Part shown: in pieces, positions 4,811-63,678 of the stretch
How positions within the stretch are numbered: position 1 is the stretch's first letter
Layout of the letters: each line of letters begins with the position of its first letter
IMG/VR virus record: IMGVR_UViG_3300032753_001573
Span: 91,689-155,688 of that record
DNA length: 64,000 nt
Strand: one strand, 5' to 3'
Source of the DNA: a virus
The notes under the pieces: model-generated
Databases searched by the model: none
Told to the model about the DNA's origin: nothing
The model's input: the letters and a program-made list of their open reading frames with translations, nothing else
Translations under genes and position numbers: made by a program

Positions 4811-4862
4811 ATTTAATTATAGGGTCTTTACATTCTCATAAACCTGTGCTATAAATAAAATA

Positions 4863-5196
4863 GCTGTTGTTGATACCAACGGAGATAGCTGGATCGGAAG
4901 CGGGAGGCAGAGCCCGCCCACTCCACCAAAGATACATCGTGAGGGGCTAGTTATACGGCGCATTTGAACAAAGTATAACCCACTGTGTAATAGTGATCAT
5001 AAAGACAGTGAGCGGTGTATCTTTGATGGGGTGGAAACAGGATCGACGGACGTTGAAAAGGTTGGAGTAGATAGCCGTGCGCAAGCGACGTACCGCAAGA
5101 AAACTATAAGTGTCAACGATAACGTGGCACCTTATGAGATGAGCCTCGCGGTTTGACCTCAATGGGTTTGGTTTAGCCTGGAAACAGAATTAAACC
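4863..5196 (+). ncRNA. ssrA: two-piece (circularly permuted) tmRNA
   Basis: 3' acceptor CCACTCCACCA ends at 4928; 5' strand GGGGTGG-AAACAGGATCGAC starts at 5028; 7-bp stem with G3.U70; tag ORF 5112-5156 reads VNDNVAPYEMSLAV*; outer boundaries approximate. Confidence 0.93.
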
Positions 5197-5224
5197 AAAG
5201 AGGGCGGGAAACCGTCCTCTTTTT
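5197..5224 (+). terminator. intrinsic terminator after tmRNA
   Basis: AAAGAGGGCGG-GAAA-CCGTCCTCTTT followed by T-run. Confidence 0.85.
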
Positions 5225-27615: not shown

Positions 27616-28881
27616 ATGAATATGGCAGGACAGAACAAGATCCTACGTCAATGCAGCTTCTGCGGCAAAAACCAGCTACAAGTGCAGAAACTAATCAATG
27701 GCAATGATGTGTATATTTGCAATGAATGTGTAGATCTTTGTCACAGCATATTGTCGCAGGATGACGACTCAAAGCCGTCAAAGACTGACAAACGTATGAT
27801 ACCAGAGGTTATCAAATCCTATTTGGATGAAAGAGTAATAGGCCAAGATACAGCAAAGACTATATTGAGTGTAGCAATTTACAACCACCTACAAAGGGTA
27901 GAGAATCCTATTGTAGACGGAGTAGAATTAGATAAGAGCAACCTATTGTTCATTGGACCCAGTGGTAGTGGTAAGACTTATTTGATACAAAATGTCAGTA
28001 AGCTACTTGATATTCCTTTTGTAATTATCGATGCTACCAGTCTAACTGAAAGTGGTTATGTTGGATTAGATGTTGAGGATTGTATAGCACGTTTATATCA
28101 AGCATCAGGTGGGGATATTGATAAAACTCAGCGTGGCATTGTTTATATAGACGAGATTGACAAGAAAGGTCGTAAAGGAGAGAACGCTAGTATTACTCGC
28201 GATGTAAGCGGCGAGGGTGTGCAGCAAGCTCTTCTGAAAATGATCGAAGGTTGCGAAGTCAAAGTGCCTCCGCAGGGAGGTCGCAAGAATCCTCACGGCG
28301 AATATGTAACAGTGGATACCAAAAACATCTTGTTTATATTGGGCGGAGCGTTTGTTGGTATTGAAGATGTTGTTAGCAAGCGTCTAGATACCAATAACAC
28401 TGGTATAGGATTTATGGCCACAATGCCTGGTGATAAACCAGACCCAGAACAAGTTCGCAAGATGATGAGGTCTGTAAAACATGAGGATGTAGCTAAGTTT
28501 GGTTTGATTCCAGAATTAATTGGACGTCTACCAATTATTGTTCCGTTTGATCACCTAAAAGAAGAGGATTTGATCAGAATTCTAACAGAGCCTAAGAATG
28601 CTGTAGTCAAGCAATTCCAAAAACAATTTGAACTTGATAATGTTAGGTTAGAGTTTAGGGATGCTGCATTGAAAGCGATAGCAGAACAAGCTATCGAAAA
28701 GAAAACTGGTGCTCGAGGATTGCGTAGCATCATAGAGAACATCCTGTTGCCCGCGCAGTTTGAATTACCGTCTCTGCAGGACAAGGGTGTAAGTACCGTG
28801 GTGGTCACGGAAAGCTGCGTCACTGATGGTCAGGACCCAGTTAAAATTTACAGGAGTGAAACAGAAGTTGCCAATAATTAA
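27616..28881 (+). CDS. clpX: ATP-dependent Clp protease ATP-binding subunit ClpX
   Basis: CSFCGK zinc domain, [12 protein letters not shown] pore loop, [27 protein letters not shown] loop, GARGLR. Confidence 0.97.
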
Positions 28882-29446
28882 TGGTGTTGCGAATCCTAGA
28901 GACCGCAGGCAGGCTGGAGATCTAATAAAGGATCAATATGCTGCAAATTATAACATACGACATCCGCAAGTTCGGTTAGTTGGAGATGATGGTTCTAATC
29001 ATGGTGTCATAGATACAAAACAAGCTATTGCTATGGCTCAGTTAGAAGATTTGGATCTAGTGCTAGTAAATACTTCTGCAAATCCTCCTGTCGCAAGGAT
29101 ATGCGACTATAACAAGTTCATCTATGAGCAAAAGCGACACAAGAAAGAGCAAGATCGCAAGCTCAGAGAGCATGCCATCGTTGTCAAAGAAATACAGTTG
29201 CGACCCAGCATCAGCAATCATGATCTAGATATCAAGCTACAGCATGCTCGAGAATGGTTGGCAGACAATTGCAAGATCAAGATTGTGGTCAAATTCAGAG
29301 GGCGTGAGATGGCCTACAAATCCAAAGGATTTGAGATGATCAACAACTTTGTTGACAAGCTCGGTTGCAAGATTGAAAAGGCACCCGATATGAATAACAA
29401 TACTTTGATAGCTATGGTAGCACCTGGTGCCAAAACTACCAAATAA
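28868..29446 (+). CDS. infC: translation initiation factor IF-3; start uncertain (TTG 28868 or ATT 28877)
   Basis: NYNIR..QVRLV, DLDLVLV, PPVARICDYNKFIYE, KEIQLRP.I..HDL..K, FRGRE. Confidence 0.93.
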   Translation: MPIINGVANPRDRRQAGDLIKDQYAANYNIRHPQVRLVGDDGSNHGVIDTKQAIAMAQLEDLDLVLVNTSANPPVARICDYNKFIYEQKRHKKEQDRKLREHAIVVKEIQLRPSISNHDLDIKLQHAREWLADNCKIKIVVKFRGREMAYKSKGFEMINNFVDKLGCKIEKAPDMNNNTLIAMVAPGAKTTK

Positions 29447-29506
29447 ATTTGACAATCACTTGTTAGAAATGGTATACATAAACGATCCAATTAGGAATGA
29501 GGAATC

Positions 29507-29818
29507 ATGAGCGACGATATTTTCTTTGGCAAACGCGGCATATCAGTTAAGGTTTTTAATAATAACATTAACGGTGCCCTAACGCAGCTTAAACGCAAGG
29601 TTAATGCCGAAGGCATCAATAAGGAACTACGCAAGCGAGAATGCTTTGAACCAAACACTGCAAAACGTAGGCGCAAGTTGGCTGAAGCACAGATACGTTG
29701 GAAGAAGAAGTACGATCAAATTATGGAAGTACCTAAGCCCAAACGCAAGCTGAAGAAGAGGCAGTTGAAACAGCAGCAGGCGTCTGCAAATAATTCTTCT
29801 ACAACTGTTCAGACATAA
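29507..29818 (+). CDS. rpsU: 30S ribosomal protein bS21 with a C-terminal extension
   Basis: V.V.NNNINGAL..LKRKV..EGI.KELRKRECFEPNTAKRRRK. Confidence 0.88.
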   Translation: MSDDIFFGKRGISVKVFNNNINGALTQLKRKVNAEGINKELRKRECFEPNTAKRRRKLAEAQIRWKKKYDQIMEVPKPKRKLKKRQLKQQQASANNSSTTVQT

Positions 29819-29852
29819 TATCTAGTATCACAACAAAGTTTGTATCATGCTT

Positions 29853-29882
29853 ATGTGGACGAGATAAACTCGTCCACATTTT
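29853..29882 (+). terminator. terminator after the clpX-infC-rpsU block
   Basis: ATGTGGACGAG-ATAAA-CTCGTCCACAT-TTT. Confidence 0.8.
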
Positions 29883-29928
29883 CTTATCTAGGTCTTGACA
29901 ATTGTTACTTCAATGACTACATATATTG

Positions 29929-29981
29929 TGTAGGATGCCAATAGGGTCCTACATTAACTTTCTTGCTTAACAAAGGAGAAA
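29929..29981 (+). promoter_or_regulatory. ROSE-like RNA thermometer of hsp20
   Basis: TTTCTT-G-CTT/AAGGAGAAA hairpin (UUGCU anti-SD with bulged G) preceded by a second hairpin; RpoH-like CTTGAC-N16-ACTACAT upstream. Confidence 0.75.
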
Positions 29982-29985
29982 CACT

Positions 29986-30484
29986 ATGTACGATAACACA
30001 CTTGATTCAATCATCAATCATCAACCAGCACCTCCGCACGCTCAATCGCAACTTTATTGGTTTTGAACCAACTCTAAGGCGTTTGACGCTAAGCGACTCG
30101 TTAGAAAACTCTGGAGGATATCCTCCTTATAATCTTGAAGTGATTGCAGATAATCACTATAGGATTACACTTGCGGTTGCTGGATTCAAGATGGAAGAGC
30201 TTGATATCACATTAGCCGACAACAAGCTAACCATTAGTGGTACCACATCTCAACGTAGCGACAACGATGTTAGAACATTTGTACACAAGGGTATAGCAGA
30301 ACGTAGCTTTACTAGAAGCTTTATCCTAGCTGATCATGTGAACATCACTGGTGCTGAGTTGGAAAATGGTCTACTCACTATCGATCTAGAACAGGAAATA
30401 CCAGAGGCATTGAAGCCTCGAAAGATTGCGATCAAACACAAAGACGTTATTGACGCAACACCTGTTAAATCGTCAAAGGCTTGA
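29986..30484 (+). pseudogene. small heat-shock protein Hsp20/IbpA, frameshifted by a 7-bp tandem duplication
   Basis: YPPYN, ITLAVAGF, HKGIAERSFTRSF.L, AELENGLL.IDL...IPE..KPRKI; the RBS-backed ATG 29986 is out of frame because CAATCAT occurs twice at 30008-30021. Confidence 0.85.
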
Positions 30485-30540
30485 TTGACACGCACCCATA
30501 TGATGCCTACAATTAGGCATATGAAATAAAGGATGGAGCC

Positions 30541-30852
30541 ATGGTAGAGACCAAGAATGATGTAGTTGTAGCTGTCATTGAAAAGGTTGCCATGGCTCCT
30601 CCTAGAATGTGGAATGTGGTATTATTCAATGATGAAAAGACCACAATGGAATTTGTAGTTCTTGTTCTGATGCAGATCTTCTATAAGAGTTTTGAAGAAG
30701 CTCAAGATATCATGATGAGTATACATGAGAATGGCAAGGGAGTTGCTGGCACTTATTCACTTGAGGTAGCATCTGCTAAACGAGACGACACTCTCAGCGT
30801 AGCAAGAACTAATGGATTTCCACTCGTAGCAGAAATTGAGCCTAACGAATGA
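30541..30852 (+). CDS. clpS: Clp protease adaptor ClpS
   Basis: PPRMWNVVLFNDEKTTMEFVV.VL..IF, IHENGKGVAGTY..EVA, GFPL. Confidence 0.93.
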   Translation: MVETKNDVVVAVIEKVAMAPPRMWNVVLFNDEKTTMEFVVLVLMQIFYKSFEEAQDIMMSIHENGKGVAGTYSLEVASAKRDDTLSVARTNGFPLVAEIEPNE

Positions 30853-31106
30853 TCAACGATTTTGACAAATTAAAATCTCAGCTCAATGAAGGTTGGGCTA
30901 GAGTAGAGTTTACCAAAGTAGATGGCTCTAATCGCAGCATGCTCTGTACTCGAAATTTTGCTGAAATACCAGAGTCTCAAGTTCCTCATGGTACAGGAAA
31001 GAAACCAAATGATTCTGTGCTAGGCGTGTTTGACCTAGAGAAGCAAGCTTGGCGTAGCATTCGAATTGATAACATACAGAGCTGGCAACCCGAACGCAAC
31101 CTTTGA
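30849..31106 (+). CDS. WYL-like / SH3-fold conserved T4-like protein
   Basis: VEFTKVDGSNRSMLCT...VFDLEKQAWRSIR. Confidence 0.8.
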   Translation: MINDFDKLKSQLNEGWARVEFTKVDGSNRSMLCTRNFAEIPESQVPHGTGKKPNDSVLGVFDLEKQAWRSIRIDNIQSWQPERNL

Positions 31107-31114
31107 GGTCTATT

Positions 31115-31327
31115 ATGGGGCACTATGATGATCAATATGAAGAAGATTATCGCTTAGAACGTGAAAGACGAGAGCGAATAGAAAAGGCTAAGATAGCCAA
31201 AGGATATGAAAAGGTTCCTGAACCTCTAAGAGATTTTCTAAAACAAGAATGGATTCATGCGGATCAATTAAAGACGTTGAGGCGTTGGTTGAATACGTGT
31301 CCTTACTGTAAATTAGTAGACGATTGA
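31115..31327 (+). CDS. hypothetical protein
   Basis: GAGG RBS; MGHYDDQYE start. Confidence 0.6.
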   Translation: MGHYDDQYEEDYRLERERRERIEKAKIAKGYEKVPEPLRDFLKQEWIHADQLKTLRRWLNTCPYCKLVDD

Positions 31328-31352
31328 GCACGCGATATAGCAGGAGAATTTT

Positions 31353-31799
31353 ATGGATAACCCAATTTTGAGAATGGACCTACCAGCCGGTATGGTTCTG
31401 ATAGAATGCTTTCCAGATCTAGCACCCAATCATGTAGCGCAGATACTAGATCAAGCCAACAGAGGATTATACGACGGTACGGTTTTCCATAGAGTGATAT
31501 CTGGATTTATGGCACAGGGCGGATGGACAAAACAGCAATTGCCGCAACTTCAGGCAGAGTTCAATGACTATCCTCATGTTGAGGGTACTTGCAGCATGGC
31601 TCGTACCAATGACCCTAATAGTGCTAGTGATCAATTCTTCATCTGTTTCAATGACTGCAGATTCCTTGATCGGAATTATACAGTTTGGGGTAAAGTCATA
31701 TATGGCATGAAGCATATACACGATGGTATTGCTAAGGGTGAACCGCCGGCGGAACCCACTCCAATTGTTCGCATGCGTCATGTAGGTACCATTAATTGA
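31353..31799 (+). CDS. cyclophilin-type peptidyl-prolyl isomerase
   Basis: APNHV, YDGTVFHRVISGFMAQGG, SMART.DPNSA..QFFI, FLD..YTVWGKV..GM. Confidence 0.95.
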   Translation: MDNPILRMDLPAGMVLIECFPDLAPNHVAQILDQANRGLYDGTVFHRVISGFMAQGGWTKQQLPQLQAEFNDYPHVEGTCSMARTNDPNSASDQFFICFNDCRFLDRNYTVWGKVIYGMKHIHDGIAKGEPPAEPTPIVRMRHVGTIN

Positions 31800-31831
31800 T
31801 ATGTTATTATTATAACAATAAATAATTTGCT

Positions 31832-32461
31832 ATGAAAGCAATTGAGAGAATACATTTAGAAATAACGAGCAGATGCACGTTAGCTTGTCCACAATGTCCT
31901 CGCACCGAATTTAAGGATTTAAATATTATATCTGATATGCCTATAGAGACAGCAGCAGCGGCATGTAAAGGATATAATCATATGTACATAGTTGGAAATC
32001 ATGGAGATCCTATATATCATCCTAAGTTTCATGAACTAATGTCTAGATTAAGGGAGGATAATCCTCTTTTGACATTTTATTTTCATACTAACGGAAGTTT
32101 CAGAAGTGAAAAATGGTGGATAAAAACAGCTAATATACTCAATCATCTAGATGAGATAGTTTTCAGTATAGATGGTTTACCTGGTAATGATCTGTATAGA
32201 GTTAATTCTAGATGGTCCTCTATAGAATTGGGTATCAAAACTTTACGTAAGCATAATACAAAATTAAAGATGACTTGGAAGTGGATACATTTCAAATATA
32301 ATCAAAATGATGTAGAATCTGCTATAGATATTGCTAAAGATCTAGGTTTTGATCAATTCTGTTTCGTTGAGAGCGACAGGACTCAGGACGGACATTGGTT
32401 AACACCGGAGATTTCCTGGAAATCAGTGAAGGATAAGTTATATGCCAGTTGTAGAAGCTAA
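31832..32461 (+). CDS. radical SAM protein
   Basis: CTLACPQC (CxxxCxxC), GNHGDP, HTNG, FSIDGL. Confidence 0.9.
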   Translation: MKAIERIHLEITSRCTLACPQCPRTEFKDLNIISDMPIETAAAACKGYNHMYIVGNHGDPIYHPKFHELMSRLREDNPLLTFYFHTNGSFRSEKWWIKTANILNHLDEIVFSIDGLPGNDLYRVNSRWSSIELGIKTLRKHNTKLKMTWKWIHFKYNQNDVESAIDIAKDLGFDQFCFVESDRTQDGHWLTPEISWKSVKDKLYASCRS

Positions 32462-32801
32462 ATGCGCAAGAGGAGATTCTTCACCTTTTGTTAATCCGGA
32501 TGGGTATTATTTTCCTTGCTGTTGGGTAATGAATATTCCTGAAGTTATAACTCTAAAAGAGTTTCTCGGCGATACATTTGAAGAGTTAAACATTAACAAT
32601 TCTAGCTTAGAAGAGGCTATGAATAGCAATGCTATGAAAAGAATAAGAGATAGCTGGGAAGATGGTAGTTTTCAACCATGTGTATGGTATTGCAAACAAA
32701 AAAATAATTTGTATAATGTACAAAATGAGCGAGAGTTTTTTATAGATTTGAAAAAATGGTCTAACCTAGAAGATTATAAAAATCTTAATTCCGGCTCTTG
32801 A
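32442..32801 (+). CDS. stand-alone SPASM-like Fe-S domain protein
   Basis: KC.......VNPDG...PCCW...C...C. Confidence 0.75.
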   Translation: MPVVEAKCARGDSSPFVNPDGYYFPCCWVMNIPEVITLKEFLGDTFEELNINNSSLEEAMNSNAMKRIRDSWEDGSFQPCVWYCKQKNNLYNVQNEREFFIDLKKWSNLEDYKNLNSGS

Positions 32802-32834
32802 AATTCACTAATAAGTTTATTATATCTAATTATG

Positions 32835-32884
32835 TAACAGTGCTTGAATAAGGCTGTTGCAAGCGATCTTGCTTCAAAAGGAGA
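32835..32884 (+). promoter_or_regulatory. ROSE-like RNA thermometer of dnaK
   Basis: TCTT-G-CTT-CAA-AAG-GAGA SD hairpin plus an upstream bulged-G hairpin; CTTGAA-N16-ATTATAT RpoH-like promoter at 32797-32825. Confidence 0.65.
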
Positions 32885-32889
32885 CAAAC

Positions 32890-34731
<1,842 letters not shown>

Positions 34732-34742
34732 CAGTGATATAA

Positions 34743-34775
34743 TTTCATAGGGTATGTAACCCATACCCTATGAAA
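34743..34775. terminator. bidirectional terminator between convergent genes
   Basis: TTTCATAGGGTATG-TAACC-CATACCCTATGAAA. Confidence 0.8.
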
Positions 34776-34783
34776 TCTTTCAT

Positions 34784-35347
34784 TTAACTTAATTTTAAAT
34801 TGATAATATCAGCAGTTTGCTGATTCAATACAACCTCGTAATGATTTACCTTGAGGTCTATTAGTTCTATATCTTGTCTAGCTCGTTGACTAGACACAGT
34901 AACTACTCCGTCGTTAGTCCCAATTATCCACGGGACACTACCTGATATAGTTACTACATTGCACCAAGGCCATTTTATTGCTACTTTGCTGGCATAGCTA
35001 AATGGCCAGCTAGTTGGTCCAACGTCGTGCAATAGCTGGTACCACGGTAATATAGCTTTGGCATAAAATGGAATATGATGACCACCATACGGTGTTGAAA
35101 GTGTAACTCCGCCAGTTACCTTAGTTCCAAAATAATCTGCTAGATGCAGCGCATATATTCCGCCTAGGCTATGTGCTATAAATTGCATGTCTTTTAGATT
35201 TGATAAATCGCTCTTCATCATTTCTAGATTATTCTCAAATCCTCGATGACTGTCGTATGAAACCAGTATGCCATCTCCGCATTTGCTGCGTATGTAATTC
35301 CAACTGTTAACGGTGGCATTGGCACCGTGAATATAAACTTTTGCCAT
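34784..35347 (-). CDS. alpha/beta hydrolase
   Basis: YIHG, AHSLGG nucleophile elbow, NDGVV, NHYE. Confidence 0.88.
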   Translation of the reverse strand: MAKVYIHGANATVNSWNYIRSKCGDGILVSYDSHRGFENNLEMMKSDLSNLKDMQFIAHSLGGIYALHLADYFGTKVTGGVTLSTPYGGHHIPFYAKAILPWYQLLHDVGPTSWPFSYASKVAIKWPWCNVVTISGSVPWIIGTNDGVVTVSSQRARQDIELIDLKVNHYEVVLNQQTADIINLKLS

Positions 35348-35413
35348 TTGTGATATTTAGCGGTTGACAATTGATATTTAGGTGTTATTGTTCAAACAAT
35401 GAGGAGTAACTAC

Positions 35414-35528
35414 ATGAAAAATCCTGTAGCCAAAGACCTGCGCACTCCAAAATATAAGCCTCGCATTGTACGTAACAAAAAAAGCATATACTCGCAAATC
35501 CAAGCACAAGGTAAACCGCAATGGTTAA
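35414..35528 (+). pseudogene. ArfA-like basic peptide, frameshifted at an A7 tract (35477-35483)
   Basis: Promoter and GAGGAG RBS; MKNPVAKDLRTPKYKPRIVRNKK, then in the +1 frame AYTRKSKHKVNRNG*, which overlaps the next ATG. Confidence 0.6.
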
Positions 35529-35757
35529 GAAAAAGAATTCACATTTATCAAATGTAATTTTGATGATATGTTACAAAGCAATGGTGCTATTATTGCCATT
35601 AGCTATGATGCTCACAATGGTCTTTATTAGACTTAGTATGGAGGATGATCTAGCTACGTTTACTGTAGCTCTCCTCACGGCTGGCATTCTCGTTCAAATT
35701 TACGAACATCTTCTGTTAGAAGAGTTTGAATATCGCAGAAAGTTTGTGGGTAATTAA
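35521..35757 (+). CDS. small 2-TM membrane protein
   Basis: Hydrophobic helices. Confidence 0.6.
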   Translation: MVKKKNSHLSNVILMICYKAMVLLLPLAMMLTMVFIRLSMEDDLATFTVALLTAGILVQIYEHLLLEEFEYRRKFVGN

Positions 35758-35809
35758 TTTTGGTTGACACGCTTCTTATAGATGCTATATTGCTCACATA
35801 GGAGGCGTT

Positions 35810-36961
35810 ATGGACATCAGTTTTATCACACAAGACCTGCGTGATCTGCGTGCTCATTTTAACCAGCATGGTTTTGATCTGCGACTGGTTGGTGGTGTCG
35901 TGCGTGACACGCTGGCGGGACTGCCTCCCAAGGATCTGGACCTGGCTACGGATGCCAAACCCCATGAGCAAGTTGAAATCTACAACGCTCACGGTTATCG
36001 CTGGATTGGCACGGGCATGGATCACGGCACGATTACGGTCATGCTGGGTGACGAGCCGCATGAGATCACCAGCCTGCGCGTTGACGTTGAGACGGATGGC
36101 AGGCATGCCAAGGTTGCATTTACGAGCGATTGGGAAGCTGACCTGGGTCGCAGGGACCTGACGATCAATGCTATGGCTATGACGTTTGACGGCAGACTGA
36201 TTGATCCGTTTGGTGGTGCTGACGATCTAGCCAACGGTGTTGTGAGATTTGTTGGCAACGCCGAAGCTAGGATCCGAGAAGACTATCTGAGGATCCTGCG
36301 GTTCTATCGCTTCTACGGCAGGTTTGGCCGCGGCGGCATTGATAGCCAAACGCGACAAGCTATTGCGTCCAATGTGTACGGTCTGCAACAGATCAGCAGG
36401 GAGCGCATCTGGAGCGAATTTCAAAAGATTCTGCCGCAAGCTGCATCTCCTGCTATCATGATTGATATGGTACAAGGTGTGGGCATTAATCATCACATTG
36501 ATCTGCCCTATAACAATGTCAGTTGGCCCAGATGGTGGCTGCACAAGGCTCTGACCATCACGAACGATCCTGCTGTACTGATGGCAGCATGGTGCTGTTA
36601 TGATCCGGTGAACGTGGAAAGTGTTGCTAAAAGTTGGAAATGGAGCAATGCGGACCGTGATCATGCAATGTGGCTGTGTAATAATGTCAGGTGCAAACGC
36701 GACCTGCGTTGGCTGATTGCTGTTGAGGGTGCTCCCAGGGAGTGGGTTGCTGAACTGGCTGCTCTGGAGGAGCGCGACGGTTGGGAACAGAATGCCCTGG
36801 TTCAATGGGTCTTTGCTCCGTTCCCTGTTAACGGTAACGATCTGATTGCAGCAGGTGTCAAACCCGGTGCAGCTATGGGCAAGATGCTGCGCATGCTGAA
36901 AGAGTCTTGGGCTCACAGCAGCTACTCTGCTACCAAAGAAGAGCTGCTGAAACTGATCTAG
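35810..36961 (+). CDS. cca: CCA tRNA nucleotidyltransferase / poly(A) polymerase family
   Basis: LVGGVVRD, DLDLATDA, EITSLRVD, RRDLTINAM, EDYLRILRFYRF, ISRERIW.E. Confidence 0.9.
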   Translation: MDISFITQDLRDLRAHFNQHGFDLRLVGGVVRDTLAGLPPKDLDLATDAKPHEQVEIYNAHGYRWIGTGMDHGTITVMLGDEPHEITSLRVDVETDGRHAKVAFTSDWEADLGRRDLTINAMAMTFDGRLIDPFGGADDLANGVVRFVGNAEARIREDYLRILRFYRFYGRFGRGGIDSQTRQAIASNVYGLQQISRERIWSEFQKILPQAASPAIMIDMVQGVGINHHIDLPYNNVSWPRWWLHKALTITNDPAVLMAAWCCYDPVNVESVAKSWKWSNADRDHAMWLCNNVRCKRDLRWLIAVEGAPREWVAELAALEERDGWEQNALVQWVFAPFPVNGNDLIAAGVKPGAAMGKMLRMLKESWAHSSYSATKEELLKLI

Positions 36962-40921: not shown

Positions 40922-43049
40922 TTGATGACATCGGTTGATAGTGCATTTACCATTACAGCTTCTGGTCGTGCATTCAAAGTGCTGAGCGACGGACTTTATT
41001 CTGACAAGATTTCTGCTGTGATCCGAGAGCTCAGTTGCAATGCCTATGACAGTCACGTAGCAGCAAACAAAGTAGATGTACCATTTGAAATTCATTTGCC
41101 TAGCGATAACGAACCTTGGTTCAGCGTACAAGATTATGGTCTTGGTATTAGCGACGCAGATATTCACAGCATTTACACTAGGTATTTTACCAGCACCAAA
41201 GTTGGTAATAGCAATCAGATAGGTGAGCTTGGCCTCGGTAGCAAAAGTCCATTTAGTCTAGTTCGAGAATTTGAAGTTACCAGTATTCATAACGGTACTT
41301 GTAGCAGGTATCGAATGTATTTTGATGACAGCGATACTCCGCGAGTACAGTTAGTAGAACAGAAGCCAACTACTGACGGCAACGGCCTGCAGGTCAAATT
41401 CACTGTACCCAATTACCATGATAGATTAGAATTTGAATCCAAAGCAATTAATGTTCTGCGATGGTTCAAAACTACACCCATAGTCAAGCTTGAACAGGCG
41501 ATTGTAGAGATTGAAAATCTCACAGTCAACATCAACTCCAATGGTTGGGGATTGCAGCCCAATGTTTCTAGATATGCAATGCCCTATGCACTTATGGGTA
41601 ACGTAGCATATCTATTGGAAAAGAGCAGCATCAAGGGCAATGACGATCATGCGTTCAGTGTATTGCGCCTGCCGCTGATTGTGCGGTTTGATATTGGTGA
41701 GCTAGAAGTGGCTGCTAGCAGAGAAGGGTTAGGCTACGATGATCGCACTTGCAATAACCTAAAAACTCGGTTGATTGCTGTCTATAATGATATCCACCAG
41801 CAGTATGCTGATAAAATTAGTTCAGCTGATACAGAATGGGATGCTCGTTCAATCTGGAACCAATATCTTGGCGAAAATGTTGACTTCCGTTGGGAGTTGC
41901 ATGAAATTTTTTCTAATCGTGTTTTTAAGTGGCGCGGGGTTGAAATCAAAAACAAGTACAAGATTATAGATCTCACTAAGTTTTATTCAGCTGCTAGCAT
42001 AAACAAGAATAACACCGTACGATGGATTCATCGCGGCGATATTGCCATGCATCGTGTGCGCCAGAATGACTTCAAAAAGCATAGTGTGAGTTGCACCAAT
42101 GACGTTAAGATCGTCTTTGATGATTTGCCTCGTAATGGGGCCAAGAGAGTAAAGCATTGGCTATCCAACTGCAAAGAAAATATAAAGGTATATCTCTATT
42201 CGCAACCAGATGTTTATAGTAAGCCAGCAGACGGTTGGCCAGCTCTGTATCAAGATTTGGGGTGTCCAGAGATCATTTGGACTAGTGAACTTGAAGCTCC
42301 GCCTGTTACAAAACGCAACAGGAAGCCGGTCAAGATGTTAAAGTTTGGTACCGATGTCTGGCGTCATGTTTGGCAGGAGGTTGACATTGACCTATCCAAA
42401 GGCGGATTTTATATTGACAAGGATCGCAATGATCCGATAATAGAAGATGGTTTTAAGGTCTCACTTAGCTCAGTTGTATCTAAGGCCAAAGAGCTTGGAT
42501 TGTTGACGGAATTTCCTGACATTTACTCGAGCAATAAATCTACTTTGAAAAAGATCAGTAAGATGAAAAATTGGGTAAACATTATCTCATATTTGAGGGA
42601 AAAGTTCTCTGAATTAATTTCAAGTGAAGACTATTGGGCTGATCATATTGCTACATCTGAACTGCTCAACAATATTAGAAGTAGCATGCCTGTTCGAGAT
42701 TTCTTCCTTTATCGCTGGGATCTACGAGATGAAAATAGTGCTATGAAGAAGTTGTTGACCATCTATCATGAATGGTCGTCAAAGATTAATACAGGTCAAA
42801 TGGAAAAAAATTGTTAACTTCTCTAGAAGTTTGGATATTGATTTGAATGTTCAACAGGGCAAAACAGATACCAGGATATCGGATGCGTTTGCTGAATTCA
42901 AGCACCGTTATCCTATGTTGAAGATGTTAAATTATTCAAGCTTCAATTCATCGTTTAATGTAGTCAACGATTATATCAACATAGTTGATATGTCTTGGGT
43001 TTATTTTGAACTCAGCCGTCCAATGCCAACCGTTGAAGAAGATGATTAA
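40922..43049 (+). pseudogene. rIIA: rIIA-like GHKL protein, split by an A7 tract (42804-42810) into ORFs 40922-42817 and 42768-43049
   Basis: AFKVLSDGLYSDKISAVIRELSCNAYDSH, QDYGLG, GLGSKSPF, F.IGELE..ASREGL.Y; removing one A gives MEKIVNFSRS and fuses the ORFs. Confidence 0.8.
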
Positions 43050-62886: not shown

Positions 62887-63678
62887 ATGAAGAAATACAG
62901 AAGCATTTGGATAAGTGACTTGCATCTAGGAACAAACGGTTGCAAAGCAGACGATCTGTGTAAATTTCTCAAACAACATGAATGTGAACACTTATATCTA
63001 GTAGGAGATATAGTAGACGGTTGGAAGCTTAATCGAGGATGGTATTGGCCACAAAGTCATAGCAATGTTGTTAGACGACTGCTTACCAAAGCCAAAAGAA
63101 GTACCAATATAACTTATATAACTGGAAATCACGACGAGTTTCTCAGAGATTGGACGAGATTTGGGTTGTATTTGGGTAATGTTAAGATAGTTAATGAGGC
63201 AGAACATATAGGCGTCGATGGAAAACGTTATCTAGTTACTCACGGCGATATGTTTGATGCTGTTACTAGGAATTACAAATGGGTTAGTTTGTTAGGAGAT
63301 TTAGCTTACGAGTTATTAATAAAAGCTAACTCTGTATTGAACAAGACTTGCAAATGGTTTGGTTACGGTTATTGGAGTTTTAGCAGATATATAAAGGTTA
63401 ATGTTAAACAAGCTACTAGTTTCATATTTAAATTTGAAAAACATTTAGCAGAATATGCAGCCAAAGGACAATATCACGGAGTGTTCTGCGGACATATACA
63501 TATGCCAGAGATCAGAAAGATAGACAACATTGTATATCTAAACGACGGATGTTGGGTAGAAAATTGCTCTGCTATAGTTGAAAACTTTGACGGCACTTTT
63601 GAATTGCTTATACAAGGAACAGATGGTGAAATGTATGTAGAGCGCAGATACGATGTAAGTAGTGGAGAGATAGCATGA
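62887..63678 (+). CDS. metallophosphoesterase, PlcP/LpxH-like
   Basis: ISDLHLG, LVGDIVDGW, WYWPQSH, GNHDEFLR, HGDMFD, CGHIH, YLNDGCWVE. Confidence 0.9.
   Translation: MKKYRSIWISDLHLGTNGCKADDLCKFLKQHECEHLYLVGDIVDGWKLNRGWYWPQSHSNVVRRLLTKAKRSTNITYITGNHDEFLRDWTRFGLYLGNVKIVNEAEHIGVDGKRYLVTHGDMFDAVTRNYKWVSLLGDLAYELLIKANSVLNKTCKWFGYGYWSFSRYIKVNVKQATSFIFKFEKHLAEYAAKGQYHGVFCGHIHMPEIRKIDNIVYLNDGCWVENCSAIVENFDGTFELLIQGTDGEMYVERRYDVSSGEIA

What the first reader, a model, noticed from the sequence alone, without database searches (positions are those of the whole stretch)
29929..32884. Identical bulged-G hairpin pairs in the leaders of both hsp20 and dnaK
Seen: four hairpins share a U.G pair, a bulged G and a C-G pair. 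For hsp20: TGTAGGAT-G-CC/GG-GTCCTACA and TTTCTT-G-CTT/AAG-GAGAAA. For dnaK: AACAGT-G-CTT/AAG-GCTGTT and TCTT-G-CTT/AAG-GAGA. The second hairpin of each pair buries the SD. Established: ROSE thermometers use U(U/C)GCU with a bulged G opposite the SD and typically precede small HSP genes. Inference: ROSE control extended to a phage dnaK; the motif in the non-SD hairpin suggests a bivalent protein-binding site, for example sHSP feedback, as well as melting.
Basis: partly seen in the sequence, partly recalled or inferred. Interest (0 to 1): 0.7.

Follow-up and report, generated by a model that had tools for sequence, protein, structure and literature searches.

The report
ROSE-like leaders on phage hsp20, dnaK
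A large lake-water phage puts the same two-hairpin RNA leader, a relative of the bacterial ROSE heat-sensing switch that hides the ribosome-binding site, in front of its own hsp20 and dnaK chaperone genes; the leader is common on phage and alphaproteobacterial dnaK genes but appears undescribed there, and its response to temperature is untested.

Summary
The second hairpin of each pair buries the Shine-Dalgarno sequence.

The strict motif occurs only twice in the 155-kb phage contig, at these two genes (0.02 expected). The hsp20 leader matches Rfam ROSE_3 over its full length but below threshold (32 of 43 bits). The dnaK leader matches no Rfam family.

A covariance model built here finds the same leader before 73 viral dnaK, 58 viral hsp20 and one groES. 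Hairpin I covaries freely around an invariant bulged G followed by C-G. I found the same leader before cellular dnaK in Rhizobiaceae, other Hyphomicrobiales and Micavibrio-like genomes, so it is not a phage invention.

E. coli ibpA and ibpB leaders also carry a bulged-G 5' hairpin. IbpA is known to bind its own leader through Arg93, and phage Hsp20s keep that arginine. sHSP feedback is therefore plausible but untested, and E. coli rpoH, another IbpA target, lacks the motif.

As assembled, the hsp20 start codon is out of frame with the Hsp20 body, across a 7-nt tandem repeat.

This scan has already reported the phage dnaK/hsp20 leader in at least 35 other genomes.

The parts
29853..29879 (+). 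Terminator-like hairpin with a T run after the S21 gene; it isolates the hsp20 unit from upstream transcription
   Evidence: 11-pair stem, then TTTCTTATCT
29895..29923 (+). Putative sigma-70-type promoter of hsp20: TTGACA, 17 nt, TACATA. It places the predicted transcript start at about 29929-29931, the foot of hairpin I
   Evidence: Read. The -10 is weak (3 of 6) and the scanner did not list it, so this is inferred
29929..29953 (+). hsp20 leader hairpin I: 8-pair outer stem ending in U.G, bulged G29937, C-G C-G, loop AAUA
   Evidence: -11.8 kcal/mol, z -3.5; ROSE_3 positions 1-27
29959..29981 (+). hsp20 leader hairpin II: UUGCU anti-SD with bulged G29965, paired to SD AAGGAG (29973-29978)
29986..30066 (+). 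Reading frame opened by the SD-served ATG: 26 codons, then TGA. It is out of frame (-1) with the Hsp20 body
30007..30024 (+). 7-nt tandem repeat TCAATCA x2.6 between the ATG and the conserved Hsp20 N-terminus. One unit fewer would join the two frames
   Evidence: (the same copy number in the possible source run, and weakly in one other lake sample)
29963..30484 (+). Open frame that holds the IbpA-like Hsp20 body (NRNFIGFE...GYPPYN...GIAERSF); 50% identical to E. coli IbpA
   Evidence: (PF00011, 6e-19)
32798..32826 (+). Putative sigma-70-type promoter of dnaK: TTGAAA, 17 nt, TATATC. The predicted start is at about 32833-32834, the foot of hairpin I
   Evidence: Read; inferred; not listed by the scanner
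32833..32861 (+). dnaK leader hairpin I: 9-pair outer stem ending in U.G, bulged G32842, C-G U-A U-A, loop GAAU
   Evidence: model R1, 45.5 bits; the fold is supported by relatives rather than by energy
32867..32884 (+). dnaK leader hairpin II: UUGCU anti-SD with bulged G32871, paired to SD AAGGAG (32878-32883)
32890..34731 (+). dnaK (613 aa, full-length Hsp70)
   Evidence: PF00012, 1.3e-262, profile 1-599 of 599; 66-68% identity to alphaproteobacterial DnaK
34742..34776 (+). Terminator-like hairpin after dnaK

Best explanation
hsp20 and dnaK of this lake-water jumbo phage are each a separate transcription unit. Each has its own host-type promoter, a transcript that begins at the foot of hairpin I, and a terminator. 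Each mRNA starts with a short, two-hairpin ROSE-like leader.

In hairpin II the UUGCU anti-SD pairs imperfectly with the SD: a U.G wobble, a bulged G, then C-G. At low temperature the 30S subunit cannot bind. Warming, or anything else that opens this weak helix, frees the SD and allows translation.

Hairpin I is a G+C-richer copy of the same module that does not contain an SD. It most likely acts as a stable 5' cap and folding nucleus, and possibly as a second recognition site.

The leader belongs to one family that also sits on ibpA/hsp20 in alpha- and gammaproteobacteria, on dnaK in many Alphaproteobacteria, and on dnaK, hsp20 and groES in many uncultured phages. The phage probably took the leader over together with host-derived chaperone genes.

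Shown: the sequence, the conserved and covarying structure, the family distribution and the gene context. Inferred: the transcript starts, the temperature response and the origin.
For: - Anatomy read from the sequence, and folds.
- The strict motif occurs only at these two SDs in 155 kb, against 0.02 expected.
- Rfam ROSE_3 aligns to the hsp20 leader over model positions 1-69 at 32 bits, E 5e-4. Its consensus hairpin I itself reads GAU-G-CC..GG-GUC.
- Model R1 scores 65.3 bits (hsp20) and 45.5 bits (dnaK) in the window, and nothing else above 18 bits in the contig. Both window leaders were among the sequences the model was built from.
- In 115 distinct viral leaders, 9 of the 11 pairs of hairpin I show changes on both sides. 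82% of cells are paired, against 49-60% in the slid controls.
- The viral dnaK loci were found with a pattern that did not include hairpin I, yet most have it.
- 73 hits precede dnaK, 58 hsp20 and 1 groES; 41 loci have both dnaK and hsp20.
- Cellular dnaK leaders in Rhizobiaceae, Hyphomicrobiales and Micavibrio have the same two modules. One Micavibrio-like genome has the leader on both dnaK and ibpA-like hsp20.
- G.U wobbles are kept strand-specifically, which fits RNA and not a DNA operator.
- The mechanism of the U.G / bulged G / C-G module is established in PMC11342760 and PMC3669281.
Against: - No experiment and no RNA data: no RNA run holds the stretch.
- The hsp20 leader is below Rfam's gathering score, and the dnaK leader has no Rfam hit.
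- Predicted SD opening with temperature is gradual and small: 0.01 to 0.19 for hsp20 and 0.31 to 0.52 for dnaK between 10 and 50 C.
- The single-sequence energies of hairpin II are not better than shuffles.
- dnaK hairpin I has a slightly more stable alternative fold.
- The -10 hexamers are weak, so the transcript starts are uncertain.
- As assembled, the ATG that the hsp20 leader controls opens a 26-codon frame and not Hsp20.
Confidence: 0.72

Rival explanations
1. sHSP feedback, which may act in addition to melting. The two bulged-G modules would be the sites where oligomeric, IbpA-type phage or host Hsp20 binds the leader and represses translation. When Hsp20 is drawn onto aggregated proteins, both hsp20 and dnaK are derepressed. 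The phage would then sense protein damage rather than temperature alone.
For: - E. coli, Cedecea and Vibrio IbpA bind their own ROSE-type 5'UTR and repress translation. This needs Arg93 and an aromatic residue at position 34. The RNA determinant is unknown (PMC10474464; PMC10410725).
- The window's Hsp20 keeps GIAER and GYPPYN. 48 of 49 distinct viral Hsp20s keep the arginine, while E. coli IbpB, which lacks the activity, has Q there.
- The bulged G and its neighbours in hairpin I are invariant while the rest of the stem covaries. A plain stabilising hairpin would not need that.
- E. coli ibpA and ibpB, both IbpA targets, also have a bulged-G 5' hairpin plus a bulged-G SD hairpin.
- E. coli dnaK, which has no such leader, is not repressed by IbpA at translation.
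Against: - E. coli rpoH, a third IbpA target, has no local hairpin of this type from -25 to +250.
- Pseudomonas leaders without hairpin I still thermoregulate (PMC3669281).
- A few viral dnaK leaders have a hairpin I without the bulge, for example L073, L082, L107 and L148.
- The window's own hsp20 is frameshifted as assembled.
- No binding data exist for any phage Hsp20.
Confidence: 0.25
2. Hairpin I is only a 5' stabiliser and folding aid. Its likeness to hairpin II is inherited from an old tandem duplication of the ROSE module and has no function of its own.
For: - In Pseudomonas, hairpin I does not melt up to 50 C.
- Deleting it keeps thermoregulation, while disrupting it derepresses. The authors propose transcript stabilisation (PMC3669281).
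- Many viral hairpins I carry GNRA or UUCG loops, typical of stable caps.
- Both hairpins I start at the predicted transcript start.
Against: A purely structural cap should tolerate loss of a destabilising bulge. Yet the bulge is G in 105 of 105 distinct leaders and is followed by C-G in 110 of 110. This holds from phages to Rhizobium and E. coli, while the neighbouring pairs change freely.
Confidence: 0.35
3. The inverted repeats are DNA operators for a heat-shock repressor (CIRCE/HrcA- or HAIR/HspR-like) rather than RNA structures.
For: - They are inverted repeats just downstream of the promoters of two heat-shock genes.
Against: - The arms are asymmetric (a bulge on one strand only).
- They keep G.U pairs that would be mismatches in DNA.
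- They covary to keep pairing rather than sequence.
- Hairpin II overlaps the SD.
- There is no match to the CIRCE consensus (from my own knowledge of it; not tested with a tool).
Confidence: 0.03

Closest known systems
Short two-hairpin ROSE-like RNA thermometers of Pseudomonas ibpA (Rfam ROSE_3, RF02523; Krajewski et al. 2013, PMC3669281)
   Same: Both have two hairpins. Hairpin II pairs U(U/C)GCU with the SD and has a bulged G. Hairpin I reads GAU-G-CC..GG-GUC in the Rfam consensus, almost letter for letter as in the window's hsp20 leader. Both sit directly before the start codon of an IbpA-type sHSP gene.
   Different: The window's elements are A+U-rich and score below the Rfam gathering threshold (32 of 43 bits; the dnaK copy has no hit). 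They lie in a phage, and one of them controls dnaK. The paper does not mention the bulge in hairpin I.
E. coli ibpA and ibpB thermometers with IbpA self-repression (Miwa and Taguchi; PMC10474464, PMC10410725)
   Same: Both leaders have a bulged-G SD hairpin and a 5' hairpin with C-G / bulged G / C-G. The sHSP is 50% identical to the phage Hsp20 and shares Arg93 and Tyr34.
   Different: The E. coli leaders have three or more hairpins. E. coli dnaK has no such leader and escapes direct IbpA control. RNA binding by the phage protein is untested.
ROSE-like thermometers upstream of ABC transporter genes (PMC11342760, PMC12857270)
   Same: These are precedents for ROSE-like modules outside small heat-shock genes. 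The crystal structure shows the U.G, bulged G, C-G geometry of the module seen here.
   Different: The cargo genes differ, and those papers mention neither dnaK nor phages.
ROSE-like leaders on phage dnaK, hsp20 and groES reported earlier by this scan (for example e1-5345698, e1-5367210, e1-5406062)
   Same: They are the same family, and I recovered it independently here.
   Different: This window uses sigma-70-like promoters instead of the T4-late-like (G)ATAAATA seen in most relatives. hsp20 and dnaK are 2.4 kb apart, with ClpS, a cyclophilin and radical-SAM genes between them. hsp20 is frameshifted.

Membership tests
ROSE-like RNA thermometers (ROSE / ROSE_3) | U(U/C)GCU anti-SD motif paired with the Shine-Dalgarno sequence | tested here: met
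   CUUGCUU opposite AAGGAG in both leaders
ROSE-like RNA thermometers (ROSE / ROSE_3) | Bulged G opposite the SD, flanked by U.G (or C-G) and C-G | tested here: met
   G29965 and G32871 in the predicted folds. The corresponding column is G in 107 of 108 distinct dnaK and hsp20 leaders
ROSE-like RNA thermometers (ROSE / ROSE_3) | 5'UTR of two to four hairpins, with the SD hairpin last and the start codon a few bases after it | tested here: met
   Two hairpins; the ATG lies 7 nt (hsp20) and 6 nt (dnaK) after the SD. The transcript start is inferred only
ROSE-like RNA thermometers (ROSE / ROSE_3) | Score at or above Rfam's gathering threshold | tested here: not met
   hsp20 leader 32 bits against 43; the dnaK leader has no hit even at E up to 10. 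Relatives also fall below threshold
ROSE-like RNA thermometers (ROSE / ROSE_3) | Precedes a small heat-shock gene | tested here: inconclusive
   Met for the hsp20 copy, although the ATG is out of frame as assembled. Not met for the dnaK copy
ROSE-like RNA thermometers (ROSE / ROSE_3) | Temperature-dependent melting of the SD hairpin and temperature-dependent translation | not testable with these tools
   Only a thermodynamic forecast is available, and it shows gradual opening
IbpA-type self-regulating sHSP with its mRNA target | Arg93, an aromatic residue at 34 and a cationic residue at 97 in the sHSP | tested here: met
   Window Hsp20 has GIAERSFTR and GGYPPYN. Arg93 is kept in 48 of 49 viral Hsp20s; residue 34 is Y or F in 41 of 49
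IbpA-type self-regulating sHSP with its mRNA target | The sHSP binds the structured 5'UTR and represses translation | not testable with these tools
   Needs purified protein and RNA. E. coli rpoH, a known target, lacks the bulged-G hairpin

The most novel reading that the evidence does not exclude
The repeated U.G / bulged-G / C-G module is the RNA feature that oligomeric IbpA-type small heat-shock proteins recognise. By placing two such modules on both hsp20 and dnaK, this phage, many others and many Alphaproteobacteria would wire Hsp70 synthesis directly into an sHSP titration circuit. That circuit would sense aggregated protein without the heat-shock sigma factor.
Probability: 0.2. Interest if true: 0.75.

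Novelty: new variant of a known kind. Interest (0 to 1): 0.55.

Why it matters
- ROSE elements are textbook thermometers of small heat-shock genes. Finding one conserved family on dnaK, in over a hundred phages and in Rhizobiaceae, other Hyphomicrobiales and Micavibrio chromosomes, widens their regulon to the central Hsp70 chaperone.
- It also shows that phages can regulate their own chaperones after transcription, without the host's sigma-32.
- The invariant bulged G in the non-SD hairpin is shared with E. coli ibpA and ibpB. It gives a concrete, mutable candidate for an open question stated by the IbpA field: what IbpA recognises in its target mRNAs.
- None of these leaders reaches Rfam's threshold, so they go unannotated in genome annotation.

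Tried and rejected
- Rfam at gathering thresholds on the window and on 16 related loci found only tmRNA and tRNAs.
- GenBank phages, by DNA and by protein: no cultured phage has a close DnaK, so there is no annotated relative to compare.
- Other copies in the contig: the weak R1 hits are not ROSE. The hit at 72927-72969 in contig coordinates (upstream of the window) is a late-promoter-like TATAAATA plus a plain hairpin before a 259-aa ORF. Window 63578-63625 is followed by no open frame.
- RNAalifold on the cellular dnaK leaders gave a poor consensus because of misalignment, so I counted a structure that I specified myself.
- RNA evidence: no RNA holder is listed for the stretch.
- Heptamer copy number: only contigs could be laid. 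They break at 30010-30029 in three runs, which proves nothing. One contig from another sample reaches 30029 without a difference.
- The thermodynamic melting forecast was not decisive.
- The moraphage paper (PMC12619734) describes phage DnaK and Hsp20 of Bacteroidota phages. That is a different lineage, and it says nothing on leaders.
- I did not build a DnaK tree. Identities alone do not establish a donor.
Full report
**Where the window lies.** The window is bases 91689-155688 of a 155,688-base IMG/VR virus contig that CheckV rates 36% complete, so it is a jumbo phage.
- Tail-fibre genes, a T4-like split topoisomerase II and a phage protease family support a phage.
- The finding sits in a cluster of translation and proteostasis genes: ClpX 27616-28881, IF3 28826-29446, S21 29507-29818, Hsp20, ClpS 30541-30852, a WYL_2 protein, a cyclophilin 31353-31799, radical-SAM and SPASM ORFs, DnaK 32890-34731 and a CCA-adding enzyme 35810-36961.
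- An alphaproteobacterial-type tmRNA lies at 4823-5199.
- The stretch occurs in lake-water metagenomes.

All four hairpins are at the stated places, and each has a U.G pair, a bulged G and a C-G pair. In each pair the second hairpin pairs CUUGCUU with AAGGAG.
- CTTGCTT N2-8 AAGGAG occurs only twice in the whole contig, at these two ribosome-binding sites. The expectation from shuffles is 0.02.
- Each leader follows a -35/-10 pair, TTGACA-17-TACATA for hsp20 and TTGAAA-17-TATATC for dnaK. These would start the transcript at the foot of hairpin I. This is inferred, because the -10 boxes are weak and the scanner did not list them.
- Terminator-like hairpins lie before the hsp20 promoter and after dnaK.

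**What it is.**
- Rfam ROSE_3, the short two-hairpin ROSE-like thermometer of Pseudomonas ibpA, aligns to the hsp20 leader over all 69 model positions. The score is 32 bits, E 5e-4, below the gathering score of 43.
- The Rfam consensus for hairpin I itself reads GAU-G-CC..GG-GUC. The bulge in the non-SD hairpin is therefore already a feature of the curated family, although Krajewski et al. never mention it.
- The dnaK leader has no Rfam hit.

**Relatives.**
- The nearest viral DnaK genes, L027 and L067, have the same two hairpins with compensatory changes. So do all 14 viral Hsp20 loci found.
- I then scanned viral contigs with a pattern that specified only UUGCU, AGGAG and the DnaK N-terminus. 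Nearly all of the 80 loci returned have a hairpin I of the form Y-G-CC .. GG-G, and some have an extra G+C hairpin in between.
- From 26 leaders I built model R1. Both window leaders were in that alignment. In the phage's own contig R1 finds only the hsp20 leader (65.3 bits) and the dnaK leader (45.5 bits).
- In the fetched viral loci R1 finds 138 leaders: 73 before dnaK, 58 before an adjacent IbpA-like hsp20 and one before groES. 41 loci have both dnaK and hsp20.

**Covariation.**
- In 115 distinct leaders, 9 of the 11 pairs of hairpin I change on both sides. 91% of hairpin I cells are paired.
- The whole structure has 82% paired cells, against 49-60% when the partners are slid (the smaller, unfitted alignment gives the same result).
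- Within this variable stem the pair after the bulge is C-G in 110 of 110. The pair before it is U.G in 77, C-G in 34 and U-A in 1. The bulge is G in all 105 distinct dnaK and hsp20 leaders that have a letter there.
- The A2 alignment was fitted to the model, which leans towards the structure. The viral dnaK loci, however, were collected without reference to hairpin I.

- The dnaK leaders of many Rhizobium species, Ciceribacter, Metarhizobium, Aureimonas, Roseibium, Liberibacter, other Hyphomicrobiales, Commensalibacter and Micavibrio (including a complete 2.1-Mb chromosome) carry a Y-G-CC..GG-G hairpin followed by a UUGCU/AGGAG hairpin.
- In a structure that I specified on 16 of them, 87% of cells pair, against 42-59% when slid.
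- R1 hits the low-G+C ones directly.
- In one Micavibrio-like genome, both dnaK and an IbpA-like hsp20 have the twin bulged-G leader.
- None of these reaches an Rfam threshold.
- I found no paper that describes ROSE on dnaK or in phages. Only the open-access library could be searched.
- The window's DnaK is 66-68% identical to alphaproteobacterial DnaK, more than to most viral ones. Together with the tmRNA type, this suggests an alphaproteobacterial host and source. That is an inference.

**The protein-binding idea.**
- E. coli IbpA represses its own mRNA, ibpB and rpoH by binding structured leaders. Arg93 and an aromatic residue at 34 are essential, and what IbpA recognises in the RNA is unknown.
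- The window's Hsp20 is 50% identical to IbpA and keeps both residues. 48 of 49 distinct viral Hsp20s behind these leaders keep the arginine.
- E. coli ibpA and ibpB leaders both fold with a bulged-G 5' hairpin and a bulged-G SD hairpin.
- Against it: the rpoH thermometer region has no such hairpin, hairpin I is dispensable for thermoregulation in Pseudomonas, and a few viral dnaK leaders have an unbulged hairpin I.

**A complication in this window.**
- The ATG served by the hsp20 leader is at 29986, and its frame stops after 26 codons.
- The conserved Hsp20 body is in the +1 frame.
- A 7-nt tandem repeat, TCAATCA x2.6 at 30007-30024, lies between the two. One unit fewer would give MYDNTLDSIINQHLRTLNRNFIGFEP, an N-terminus like that of relatives.
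- The possible source run agrees with the window. A contig from another lake sample reaches just past the repeat without a difference. Contigs of three runs break there.
- Whether this is a fixed frameshift, a slippage switch or an assembly artefact is open.

**Limits.**
- No expression or temperature data exist.
- Energy forecasts are weak.
- The dnaK hairpin I has a competing fold.
- This scan has reported the phage dnaK/hsp20 leader before, in at least 35 genomes.
- New here are the cellular dnaK leaders, the count of the hairpin-I bulge, the link to IbpA Arg93 and the hsp20 frameshift.

Noticed in passing
window 29986-30066 and 30007-30024: The SD-served ATG of hsp20 is out of frame with the Hsp20 body. 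A 7-nt tandem repeat (TCAATCA x2.6) lies between them, and one unit fewer would restore a single ORF. This could be a frameshift mutation, a slippage switch or an assembly error.
   Followed up: partly
L196-L274 (for example L250, L197, L225, L268, L254, L221, L251, L244, L222, L264): Cellular dnaK genes of Rhizobium and other Hyphomicrobiales, Liberibacter, Commensalibacter and Micavibrio carry a ROSE-like leader: a bulged-G hairpin plus a UUGCU/AGGAG hairpin. It reaches no Rfam threshold, and I found it in no paper.
   Followed up: partly
L315:5421-5530:- and L315:4896-5009:- (E. coli ibpA and ibpB leaders): Both E. coli leaders fold with a 5' hairpin that has C-G / bulged G / C-G, in addition to the known bulged-G SD hairpin. 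The ibpA middle hairpin also has a bulged G.
   Followed up: partly
L115:4070-4125:+: In one viral contig the same two-hairpin leader precedes a groES gene downstream of dnaK.
   Followed up: no
window 4823-5199: A phage-borne alphaproteobacterial-type (permuted, two-piece) tmRNA: Rfam alpha_tmRNA 90 bits, against a threshold of 50.
   Followed up: no
window 27616-36961: A dense translation and proteostasis island in a phage: ClpX, IF3, ribosomal protein S21, Hsp20, ClpS, cyclophilin, DnaK and a CCA-adding enzyme. An HSP90-like ATPase lies at 40922-42817.
   Followed up: no
window 31832-32461 and 32442-32801: A radical-SAM core and a SPASM domain lie in two ORFs that overlap by 20 nt in different frames. 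Such enzymes are usually one polypeptide, so this may be a second frameshift in the contig.
   Followed up: no
L070-L149 leaders; contig coordinates about 72920-72969, upstream of the window: Most related viral dnaK and hsp20 leaders follow a T4-late-like (G)ATAAATA box about 6 nt before hairpin I. The window's contig has such a box before a 259-aa ORF, but its hsp20 and dnaK use sigma-70-like -35/-10 boxes instead.
   Followed up: no
window 30485-30513: A near-consensus sigma-70 promoter (TTGACA-17-TACAAT, 11 of 12) lies directly before ClpS, so hsp20 and ClpS are probably separate units.
   Followed up: no
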